Part shown: one piece after another, positions 9,699 through 9,860 of the stretch
Layout: each line of letters opens with the position of its first letter
Numbering within the stretch: the stretch's first letter is position 1
IMG/VR virus record: IMGVR_UViG_2531839193_000017
Reading direction: 5' to 3' (one strand)
DNA: 17,262 nt
DNA from: a virus
Lineage: Duplodnaviria; Heunggongvirae; Uroviricota; Caudoviricetes
The notes under the pieces: model-generated
Database searches by the model: none
Seen by the model: the letters and a program-made list of their open reading frames with translations, nothing else
What the model was told of the DNA's origin: nothing
Made by a program: the position numbers and the translations under genes

Positions 9699-9860
9699 TT
9701 ATGTTGCCATGCGAAGTATGCATGGCTGCATGTCTGCCTTCCATTTAAAATGGGCTAAGACCTATAACCCTAAATATTATTCTTTATTATCTTCTTTACC
9801 ACTTCGGTGATGCTGCCAACTTACTGATTTAGTGTATGATGGTGTTTTTGAGGTGCTCCA

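What the first reader, a model, noticed from the sequence alone, without database searches (positions are those of the whole stretch)
9699..9815. Two unrelated prophage remnants are joined across an IS1 copy that has no target duplication
IS1 copy 2 has the lambdoid remnant on its left (flank TACCACTTC) and, after undoing the inversion, the KplE1-like remnant on its right (flank reverse complement of CTGTCTTTT at 16266-16274). The flanks do not match. As I recall, these two prophage types are about 1.9 Mb apart in K-12. The junction looks like the scar of an IS1-mediated deletion or large rearrangement that also removed the replication and early regions of the lambdoid element.
Basis: partly seen in the sequence, partly recalled or inferred. 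Interest (0 to 1): 0.5.

Follow-up and report, generated by a model that had tools for sequence, protein, structure and literature searches.

The report
IS1 deletion scar inside one prophage
The IS1 copy without a target duplication is real, but it marks an ordinary IS1-caused internal deletion (followed by a small inversion) inside a single lambda-like prophage sitting at the argW tRNA gene of Shigella sonnei, not a fusion of two prophages from distant parts of the chromosome.

Summary
IS1 copy 2 (9806-12707, itself split by an IS21-family element) has TACCACTTC on its left. The 3.57-kb segment to its right is inverted: its right flank CGCTTGCAG is the reverse complement of the flank outside IS1 copy 3, a 9-bp target duplication in cscK. 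After undoing the inversion, the IS1 has TACCACTTC / AAAAGACAG, so no duplication.

The window is Shigella sonnei, 99.9% identical to complete genomes. In those genomes the "lambdoid remnant" runs about 38 kb leftward: P', nin, Q, porin, lysis, heads, tails, tfa, then intS, argW, yfdC. The torI side ends at the argW attR core next to csc/dsd. Both parts therefore lie in one argW-integrated prophage. They are colinear, in the same orientation, with an intact argW lambdoid prophage of E. coli CEA224S.

About 9 kb is missing: the early, immunity and replication region. This is a textbook IS1-associated deletion followed by an IS1 inversion into cscK. It is not a 1.9-Mb join with a DLP12-type element. 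None of 5,426 complete E. coli genomes has IS1 at either site. A published PHAST survey already lists the region as one lambda-like prophage. Low novelty.

The parts
5098..9776 (-). Lambdoid nin/Q/porin module retained left of the junction. It holds an OmpC-like porin (5487-6569, +), quuD (6758-7156), rusA (7364-7726), ybcO (7723-8052), ninE, ybcN (8176-8631), and two hypothetical genes on the + strand (8896-9273 and 9270-9698).
   Evidence: 98.6-99.4% identical and colinear with lambdoid prophages of E. coli A7 and CV839-06.
9777..9805 (-). The last 29 nt of replication gene P. This is the left deletion endpoint, and its last 9 bases, TACCACTTC (9797-9805), are the flank of IS1.
   Evidence: Window 9805 = L003 7106. 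P is annotated at L003 7078-7791 (-). The uninterrupted sequence continues GCACCATCCCG....
9806..10036 (+). IS1 copy 2, left part (IS1 nt 1-231, IRL end).
   Evidence: Identical to IS1 copy 1 over nt 1-231.
10037..12166 (+). IS21-family element (istA 10138-11310, istB 11307-12107) inserted into IS1 copy 2, with a 4-bp duplication ATAT.
   Evidence: Boundaries and duplication are. Pfam rve/Mu-transpos_C_2 and IstB_IS21 are. It is present in all S. sonnei loci examined.
12167..12707 (+). IS1 copy 2, right part (IS1 nt 228-768, IRR end).
   Evidence: With the IS21 element removed, the copy is 768 bp.
12708..16274 (.). Inverted 3,567-bp segment containing:
- cscK 3' end (12708-12769), including the target copy CGCTTGCAG at 12708-12716.
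- cscB (about 12841-14086, reading frame broken).
- argW attR core TGGTGTCCCCTGCAG (14528-14542).
- torI (14615-14815, -).
- Hypothetical 114 aa (14938-15282, -).
- Hypothetical 200 aa (15524-16126, +).
- The right deletion endpoint, with flank CTGTCTTTT at 16266-16274.
   Evidence: 99.5% colinear with E. coli CEA224S L001 6001-9569. torI/attR matches K-12 CPS-53 at 93%. Beyond the endpoint, the intact relative continues CTCCGTTAGCG... into TraR, exo, bet and gam.
16275..17042 (-). IS1 copy 3, 768 bp, inverted relative to copy 2.
   Evidence: 1 SNP relative to copy 2, 1 SNP relative to copy 1.
17043..17262 (-). Body of cscK, reverse strand, starting with the second target copy CTGCAAGCG (17043-17051).
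   Evidence: Window 17043-17262 = L001 6009-5790. This overlaps the other flank by 9 bp, L001 6001-6009.
4330..5097 (+). IS1 copy 1, a simple insertion between essD and the porin gene with an 8-bp duplication CCAATTTT. It serves as an internal control.
   Evidence: 8-bp overlap at L003 2397-2404.
1..4329 (-). Lambdoid late and lysis region of the same prophage:
- IS2 end (1-268).
- 85-aa gene (685-942).
- KilA-N gene (939-1436).
- Rz (1691-2107).
- rrrD, split by an extra IS2 (2522-3851, duplication TTAAC).
- essD (3924-4139).

Best explanation
The window comes from Shigella sonnei and shows one lambda-like prophage integrated at tRNA-argW, using an IntS/TorI integration module. The prophage is being eroded by insertion sequences.

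An IS1 that had landed in the prophage caused a deletion of about 9 kb. The deletion arose either by intramolecular transposition (the classical IS1 adjacent deletion) or by recombination between two directly repeated IS1 copies. It ran from 29 nt before the end of gene P to just past a 200-aa gene near torI. It removed O, most of P, cII/cro/cI, N, kil/cIII, gam/bet/exo and TraR. It left a single IS1 with unrelated flanks (TACCACTTC / AAAAGACAG).

Later, that IS1 transposed in cis into the neighbouring host gene cscK in the inversion mode. Equivalently, a second IS1 inserted into cscK and the two copies recombined. Either route flipped the 3.57-kb torI-attR-cscB segment. It also left the 9-bp cscK target as an inverted pair, one copy inside the segment and one outside.

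An IS21-family element then inserted into IS1 copy 2.

Shown:
- The flanks, the inversion footprint and the deletion endpoints.
- Colinearity with an intact relative.
- The position of both parts between argW-intS and attR.

Inferred:
- The order of events.
- Which of the two IS1 mechanisms acted at each step.
For: 1. Flanks and the inverted 9-bp cscK duplication are established.

2. The source is S. sonnei. The window is 99.9% identical to CP022457.1 and AGRD01000055.1 and to 53G HE616528.1 (identity of the accession from PMC5447701).

3. To the left of the window, S. sonnei genomes carry IS2, ybcV, Nu1, terminase, portal and capsid. They then carry tail genes, J, lom, stf and tfa (IMG/VR contig pieces L021, L032, L166 and L192). 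Next come IS1, an AraC fragment and IS3 fragments, then a 385-aa integrase, tRNA-Arg(CCU), YfdC and MlaA. The last stretch matches K-12 intS-argW-yfdC-mlaA at 98%.

4. In CP032523.1 the tfa locus and the window-left locus lie 25.6 kb apart on the same strand.

5. The IS1 beyond tfa also lacks a duplication. Its two flanks are colinear with one prophage of E. coli TUM9757 apart from a missing 743 bp, so the late region is contiguous with intS.

6. E. coli CEA224S has an intact prophage with the order argW, intS, tfa, stf, J, heads, lysis, porin, quuD, P, O, cI, N, exo/bet/gam, TraR, 200-aa gene, 114-aa gene, torI, cscB, cscK. After un-inversion, both window parts match this order and orientation. 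The distance from the 200-aa gene side to the 3' end of P is 9.3 kb.

7. The argW attR core lies at 14528-14542.

8. No reciprocal IS1-P junction was found in IMG/VR.

9. PHAST region 75/02pp2 (414,035-462,932 of CP019689, lambda-like) spans argW to about IS1 copy 3. This is by coordinate arithmetic from L201.
Against: - Both IS1 copies that bound the 35-kb late region lack target duplications, so the link of the late region to intS and to torI rests on colinearity with relatives rather than on uninterrupted sequence.
- The closest matches of the P-nin module (99.4-99.8%) are in argU-site (intD) prophages such as the one in E. coli A7. The 750 bp after tfa is mostly found at serU in E. coli (228 of 280 genomes). 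Lambdoid mosaicism explains both, but neither proves the site of origin.
- The absence of a reciprocal junction could only be tested in IMG/VR, not in whole S. sonnei genomes.
- No intermediate genome was found with IS1 plus a duplication at either endpoint.
Confidence: 0.8

Rival explanations
1. One reading: a DLP12-like or other lambdoid prophage from a distant site (argU, or serU/attλ) and a KplE1-like remnant at argW were brought together by recombination between IS1 copies. This would be a large inversion or translocation, leaving a hybrid IS1 with flanks from two loci.
For: - IS1 has no duplication.
- Best identity of the P-nin module is to argU-site prophages.
- The module after tfa resembles the end of serU prophages, up to 110 bp from their att site.
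- S. sonnei genomes are highly rearranged by IS (PMC8072062, abstract only, listed).
Against: - The late region lies between intS-argW and torI-attR. It is contiguous with intS apart from a 743-bp IS1 deletion.
- Order and orientation equal those of an intact single argW prophage.
- A direct-orientation join with serU or argU would need the loss of hundreds of kb that include essential genes, or at least two extra rearrangements.
- The post-tfa module also occurs at attλ, next to an intS 3' fragment, so it is a mosaic module rather than a site marker.
- No reciprocal junction is present in IMG/VR.
Confidence: 0.05
2. Two IntS-type prophages were integrated in tandem at argW. The IS1 deletion spans their boundary, so the torI segment belongs to an older KplE1-like element and the late region to a second phage.
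For: - Tandem lysogeny at tRNA sites is known (general knowledge).
- The deleted interval is unobservable.
- Only the torI module resembles K-12 KplE1.
Against: - It needs a deletion of at least 45 kb instead of about 9 kb.
- The same torI, 114-aa and 200-aa block (99.5% identical) is directly continuous with lambdoid early genes in the single prophage of CEA224S.
- Only one intS and one torI are present.
Confidence: 0.08
3. A variant of the mechanism with the same product. The deletion and the inversion were each made by RecA-dependent recombination between pre-existing IS1 copies (two direct copies for the deletion, two inverted copies for the inversion), not by intramolecular replicative transposition of one IS1.
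For: - S. sonnei carries very many IS1 copies.
- IS1 copies 2 and 3 differ by one SNP at IS1 nt 658, so they are not perfect replicas.
- The final sequence is identical under both mechanisms (derivation in the full report).
Against: It needs two more independent insertions. No genome with IS1 plus a duplication at either deletion endpoint was found among 5,426 E. coli genomes or in the S. sonnei loci seen. One SNP is easily explained by later mutation or gene conversion.
Confidence: 0.35
4. Assembly artefact: repeats were collapsed or mis-joined across IS1.
For: One draft contig (CWUL01000003.1, L008) joins this IS1 to the mutS region. L016 shows internal gaps in IS elements.
Against: The same structure appears in at least 10 independent complete or long-contig S. 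sonnei assemblies at 99.9% identity.
Confidence: 0.01

Closest known systems
IS1-mediated adjacent deletion and duplicative inversion (classical IS1 and replicative-transposition genetics; from general knowledge, not re-read here)
   Same: - A single IS1 is retained.
- One old flank and one new flank are present, with no 8-9-bp duplication.
- The intervening DNA is lost.
- For the inversion, there are two inverted IS1 copies, and the 9-bp target is present as an inverted pair, one copy inside and one outside the flipped segment.
   Different: Nothing mechanistic differs. This is a natural, fixed example in S. sonnei rather than a laboratory selection. Transposition and homologous recombination cannot be told apart here.
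Intact lambdoid prophage at argW of E. coli CEA224S (NZ_CP166080.1, about 2,564,800-2,613,200)
   Same: - Same integration site: argW, intS ... torI, attR, cscB.
- Same gene order and orientation.
- The torI, 114-aa and 200-aa block is 99.5% identical.
- Structural genes are 97-98% identical, and the Q-porin-lysis module is 90-94% identical.
   Different: - CEA224S keeps the 9.3-kb early, immunity and replication region.
- It has a different nin/P module (ninB, ren, lambda-type P).
- It has a different int-proximal accessory region (ompT, hydrolase).
- It has no IS1 at these sites.
KplE1 / CPS-53 cryptic prophage of E. coli K-12 (argW, 2,466,369-2,476,583)
   Same: - Same attachment site.
- intS at attL (98% identical).
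- torI and the 15-nt attR core at the other end (about 409 bp, 93% identical).
   Different: None of yfdG to yfdT is present. The two genes next to torI are not in K-12. The S. sonnei element has a full lambda-like late region.
DLP12 cryptic lambdoid prophage of K-12 (argU site)
   Same: Gene content is ybcN, ninE, ybcO, rusA, ylcG, quuD, nmpC-like porin, essD, rrrD, rzpD. Annotators use the DLP12 gene names for it.
   Different: It is not at argU and has no intD. It has complete head and tail genes. Its location is argW.
S. sonnei 75/02 prophage region 75/02pp2 (PHAST, lambda-like, 48.9 kb; PMC5447701)
   Same: Same region by coordinates: L201 = CP019689.1 411,842-432,423, with argW near 417.5 kb and the region ending at 462.9 kb. 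It is reported as conserved in Ss046, 53G, FDAARGOS_90 and FORC_11.
   Different: The paper labels it 'intact' and does not describe the IS1 deletion, the inversion or the missing early region. The right half of the 75/02 region was not fetched here.

Membership tests
IS1 (IS1-family insertion sequence) | A 768-bp element with terminal inverted repeats GGTGATGCTGCCAAC... / ...GTTGGAGTCATTACC. | tested here: met
   With the IS21 element removed, copy 2 is 768 bp. It differs from copies 1 and 3 at only 1-2 positions, and both ends are intact.
IS1 (IS1-family insertion sequence) | Encodes InsA and InsB. | tested here: met
   Pfam Zn_ribbon_InsA, HTH_Tnp_IS1 and DDE_Tnp_IS1 are recorded on the called genes of the same loci. 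In copy 2, insA is truncated by the IS21 element (the 67-aa fusion ORF at 9861-10064).
IS1 (IS1-family insertion sequence) | An 8-9-bp direct target duplication after simple insertion. | tested here: not met
   The flanks are TACCACTTC vs CGCTTGCAG as found, and TACCACTTC vs AAAAGACAG after un-inversion. This is expected for a deletion or recombination product. It does not affect membership of the element itself.
IS-mediated adjacent deletion scar | The two flanks are colinear with an uninterrupted reference, and only the intervening segment is missing. | tested here: met
   The left flank continues into P in A7. The right flank continues into TraR, exo and bet in CEA224S. Both have the order and orientation of one argW prophage.
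IS-mediated adjacent deletion scar | No reciprocal junction elsewhere in the genome. | tested here: inconclusive
   The pattern IS1-end + N6-12 + rest of P gave 0 hits in IMG/VR. Whole S. sonnei chromosomes could not be scanned with these tools.
IS duplicative (or IS-pair) inversion | Two IS copies in inverted orientation bracket the segment, and the target duplication is present as an inverted pair, one copy inside and one outside. | tested here: met
   Copy 2 is on the + strand and copy 3 on the - strand. CGCTTGCAG lies inside at 12708-12716 and CTGCAAGCG outside at 17043-17051. Both equal L001 6001-6009 in cscK.
KplE1/CPS-53-type (IntS/TorI) argW prophage | Integrated at tRNA-argW, with intS at attL and torI plus the core repeat at attR. 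| tested here: met
   tRNA-Arg(CCU) and a 385-aa integrase are 98% identical to K-12. torI is at 14615-14815 and the 15-nt core at 14528-14542.
KplE1/CPS-53-type (IntS/TorI) argW prophage | The K-12 KplE1 gene set (yfdG to yfdT). | tested here: not met
   Only about 409 bp (torI/attR) of window 12708-16274 matches the K-12 region.
DLP12 | A lambdoid remnant at argU with intD. | tested here: not met
   Gene content is similar, but the element is bounded by intS-argW, not intD-argU.
Lambda-like (lambdoid) prophage | Lambda-type late genes (Nu1, A, W, portal, C, D, E ... J, lom, stf, tfa) together with a Q, lysis and nin region. | tested here: met
   The region is 97-98% identical to CEA224S structural genes.
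Lambda-like (lambdoid) prophage | An immunity, replication and recombination (early) region. | tested here: not met
   It is absent between 9805 and the torI block. Only 29 nt of P remain.

The most novel reading that the evidence does not exclude
The prophage lost its immunity, replication, N and recombination genes to IS1. It still keeps an apparently complete Q-porin-lysis-head-tail late region in every S. sonnei genome examined. The most novel reading not excluded is that this locked-in late region, or its OmpC-like porin, is retained by selection, for example as a porin source or as a particle- or tailocin-like function. A lesser point is that the inverted 9-bp footprint may record a one-step IS1 duplicative inversion in nature.
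Probability: 0.07. Interest if true: 0.4.

Novelty: already known. Interest (0 to 1): 0.12.

Why it matters
It matters little beyond correct annotation. The result shows that a prophage region PHAST called 'intact' in S. sonnei cannot replicate or maintain immunity, because IS1 removed its early region. It shows that the csc sucrose locus was inactivated by the same IS1 activity. It also shows that missing target duplications can be read, step by step, as a deletion followed by an inversion. The IS1, IS21 and IS2 junctions are lineage markers for S. sonnei, since they are absent from 5,426 complete E. coli genomes. The case is a caution against inferring long-range rearrangements from K-12 map positions when lambdoid modules are mosaic.

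Tried and rejected
1. Walking left from the window with the search for homologous proteins on the S. sonnei capsid protein. The route that worked was listing of cluster members followed by the look-up of encoding contigs.

2. Walking along an IMG/VR provirus contig by exact patterns. The contig ends near tfa, before the host flank.

3. serU origin of the late region. The 750 bp after tfa matches the end of a serU prophage in E. coli 94EC up to 110 bp from its att site. I rejected this as a site marker for two reasons:
- The best matches (99.6%) are in an attλ prophage of TUM9757.
- That same module continues colinearly on the other side of the S. sonnei IS1 to intS.

4. L016 (CP029794.1) first looked like a pre-IS21 state of the junction. 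It actually contains the IS21 left end and has internal gaps in several IS elements, so it is not an intermediate.

5. A search for E. coli genomes with IS1 at either endpoint found none. No place covered 80% or more of the 160-bp junction probes. In about 370 records the 40-piece limit was reached.

6. Pfam on the genes next to the endpoints (125, 142, 114 and 200 aa) gave nothing above threshold.

Full report
**What is in the window**

Repeat finding and direct reading show three IS1 copies:
- Copy 1 at 4330-5097 (+).
- Copy 2 at 9806-12707 (+).
- Copy 3 at 16275-17042 (-).

Copy 2 is split after IS1 nt 231 by a 2,130-bp IS21-family element (10037-12166). That element carries istA and istB (Pfam) and has a 4-bp duplication ATAT.

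TACCACTTC lies at 9797-9805 and CTGTCTTTT at 16266-16274.

**The inversion is real**

The flank right of copy 2 (CGCTTGCAG, 12708-16) is the reverse complement of the flank right of copy 3 (CTGCAAGCG, 17043-51). Against an uninterrupted E. coli csc locus (L001), window 12708-16274 equals L001 6001-9569, and window 17043-17262 equals L001 6009-5790. The two pieces therefore share the same 9 bases of cscK.

The geometry is A-[IRL IS1 IRR]-t'-B'-[IRR IS1 IRL]-t-C. This is what one-step intramolecular replicative transposition in the inversion mode predicts. It is also what an IS1 insertion into cscK followed by recombination with copy 2 predicts. The derivation is my own, from the standard transposition model.

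Undoing the inversion gives one IS1 with a perfect 9-bp duplication in cscK. The other has TACCACTTC / AAAAGACAG, so it has no duplication.

Simple insertions in the same window keep their duplications. IS1 copy 1 has 8 bp, the IS2 in rrrD has 5 bp (TTAAC), and the IS21 element has 4 bp. The missing duplication is therefore informative.

**What flanks the duplication-less IS1**

On the left, 9777-9805 is the last 29 nt of replication gene P. It is preceded by two hypothetical genes and then ybcN, ninE, ybcO, rusA, ylcG, quuD, an OmpC-like porin and the lysis genes. This block is 98.6-99.4% colinear with lambdoid prophages of E. coli A7 and CV839-06. In A7 the sequence continues into P as GCACCATCCCG....

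On the right, after un-inversion, come a 200-aa gene, a 114-aa gene, torI, the 15-nt argW attR core (14528-14542), then cscB and cscK. This is 99.5% colinear with E. coli CEA224S. In CEA224S the sequence beyond the endpoint continues CTCCGTTAGCG... into TraR, exo, bet, gam, kil, cIII and N.

**Source and wider context**

The junction-specific 67-aa InsA'-IS21 fusion ORF (9861-10064) is found in assemblies whose DNA is 99.9% identical to the whole window. The one difference is that they lack the IS2 in rrrD.

The 85-aa gene near the left end brings in further complete genomes, including HE616528.1. That accession is S. sonnei 53G (PMC5447701).

Leftward of the window these genomes carry IS2, ybcV, Nu1, terminase, portal, protease, D and E.

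An IMG/VR provirus contig with the same junction was walked through the tail genes, J, lom and stf.

The exact S. sonnei Tfa protein was reached via the listing of cluster members. It then gave complete-genome loci showing tfa, 750 bp, IS1, a 167-aa ORF, an AraC fragment, IS3 fragments, a 385-aa integrase, tRNA-Arg(CCU), YfdC and MlaA. The last part is 98% identical to K-12 intS-argW-yfdC-mlaA.

In CP032523.1 the two loci lie 25.6 kb apart in the same orientation. From argW to the junction is about 38 kb.

**One prophage, not two**

The 'lambdoid remnant' is therefore bounded by argW-intS (attL). The 'KplE1-like remnant' is bounded by torI-attR next to csc/dsd.

E. coli CEA224S carries an intact prophage with exactly this layout. 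Its order is argW, intS, tfa, stf, J, heads, lysis, porin, quuD, P, O, cII, cro, cI, N, gam, bet, exo, TraR, the 200-aa gene, the 114-aa gene, torI, cscB and cscK.

After un-inversion both window parts have the same order and strand as in CEA224S. The interval between the two endpoints there is 9.3 kb (8.5 kb in A7-type early regions).

The simplest history is an IS1-associated deletion of about 9 kb covering the early, immunity and replication region inside one prophage.

**A complication checked**

The IS1 beyond tfa also lacks a duplication (AAGAAGGCT / AATTGGGTG). In addition, the 750 bp after tfa resembles the terminus of serU-integrated prophages: 98.4% identical, up to 110 bp from the att site in 94EC. 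This could have meant that the late region came from serU.

However, only 228 of the 280 genomes that carry this module have it next to serU. The best match (99.6%) is in an attλ prophage of TUM9757.

The DNA on the other side of the S. sonnei IS1 continues colinearly with that same TUM9757 module (99.5%, 743 bp missing) and runs into intS. TUM9757 even retains an 84-bp fragment matching the intS 3' end.

The late region is therefore contiguous with intS apart from a second small IS1 deletion. The module is mosaic, not a marker of integration site.

**Comparison with known elements**

K-12 KplE1/CPS-53 shares the site, intS, and about 409 bp of torI/attR (93% identical). It shares none of yfdG to yfdT.

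DLP12 shares gene names (ybcN to rzpD) but sits at argU with intD, as in A7.

The 1.9-Mb K-12 distance is correct for DLP12 versus CPS-53. The CPS-53 coordinates are and the DLP12 position is from memory. The distance does not apply here.

No complete E. coli genome (5,426) has IS1 at either endpoint. No reciprocal IS1-P junction exists in IMG/VR, which is a weak negative.

**Literature**

A PHAST survey of S. sonnei 75/02 lists a 48.9-kb lambda-like region, 75/02pp2, at 414,035-462,932 of CP019689. It is labelled 'intact' and reported as conserved in Ss046, 53G and others. By coordinates, from L201, this region spans argW to about IS1 copy 3.

A survey of csc loci reports that cscK and cscB in Shigella are usually interrupted by IS1, IS3 or IS4 (PMC11251922).

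High IS-driven rearrangement in Shigella is the subject of PMC8072062, which I saw only as an abstract in the list.

**Verdict**

The 'two unrelated prophages / large rearrangement' part is not supported.

The feature is a routine IS1 deletion-plus-inversion scar in a known S. sonnei prophage region.

Two things remain unresolved:
- Whether transposition or homologous recombination acted at each step.
- Whether a tandem-prophage history can be formally excluded.

Noticed in passing
window 2522-3851: An extra IS2 copy is inserted in the lysozyme gene rrrD with a 5-bp duplication TTAAC. It is absent from the other S. sonnei loci compared (L006, L007, L013, L021), so it is a strain or lineage marker for the window's source.
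   Followed up: partly
window 14835-14850 (- strand): A 16-nt exact copy of the T-arm of tRNA-argW (TTGCAGGTTCGATTCC) lies just upstream of the torI start codon. The same 16-mer is in the same place in K-12 CPS-53 (L206 12276). About 5e-4 such matches are expected by chance. Its meaning is unknown; it may be a relic of a tRNA fragment carried by the phage.
   Followed up: partly
L196 11332-12099 (S. sonnei CP023645.1), about 35 kb left of the window junction: A fourth IS1, between tfa and intS, also lacks a target duplication (AAGAAGGCT / AATTGGGTG). Its flanks are colinear with E. coli TUM9757 apart from a missing 743 bp. This is a second small IS1-associated deletion in the same prophage.
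   Followed up: yes
L205 (LR213458.1) 12100-20582: In this strain the DNA beyond the tfa-side IS1 is not intS-argW-yfdC. Instead it holds fimbrial usher and chaperone genes, smr, a methyltransferase, chorismate synthase and others, with a different flank (ACGGTGCTG). This is a further IS1-mediated deletion or rearrangement at the same IS1 in one lineage.
   Followed up: no
window 12841-14086: The cscB reading frame is broken in the window (two overlapping ORFs of 211 and 219 aa) and in L007. It is intact (415 aa) in L006, so the pseudogenisation is polymorphic within S. sonnei.
   Followed up: partly
L008 (CWUL01000003.1) 4849-6100; L016 (CP029794.1): One draft contig joins the IS1::IS21 junction directly to IS1 and then to mutS. 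Another assembly has internal gaps in IS1, IS2 and IS21. These are probably assembly collapses across IS copies, which is a caution when using such assemblies as intermediates.
   Followed up: partly
L207 6714-6797 (E. coli TUM9757, attλ prophage): A prophage at the lambda attachment site (next to ybhB-bio) carries an 84-bp fragment matching the 3' end of intS, beside the same AraC and IS3-fragment module found next to intS in S. sonnei. This is evidence that the accessory module moved between phages with different integrases.
   Followed up: partly
window 9270-9698: The 142-aa hypothetical protein just left of the P remnant has a sub-threshold Pfam hit to 7TMR-DISM_7TM (E = 2.6e-4, below the gathering score). 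It may be a small membrane protein of the nin region.
   Followed up: no
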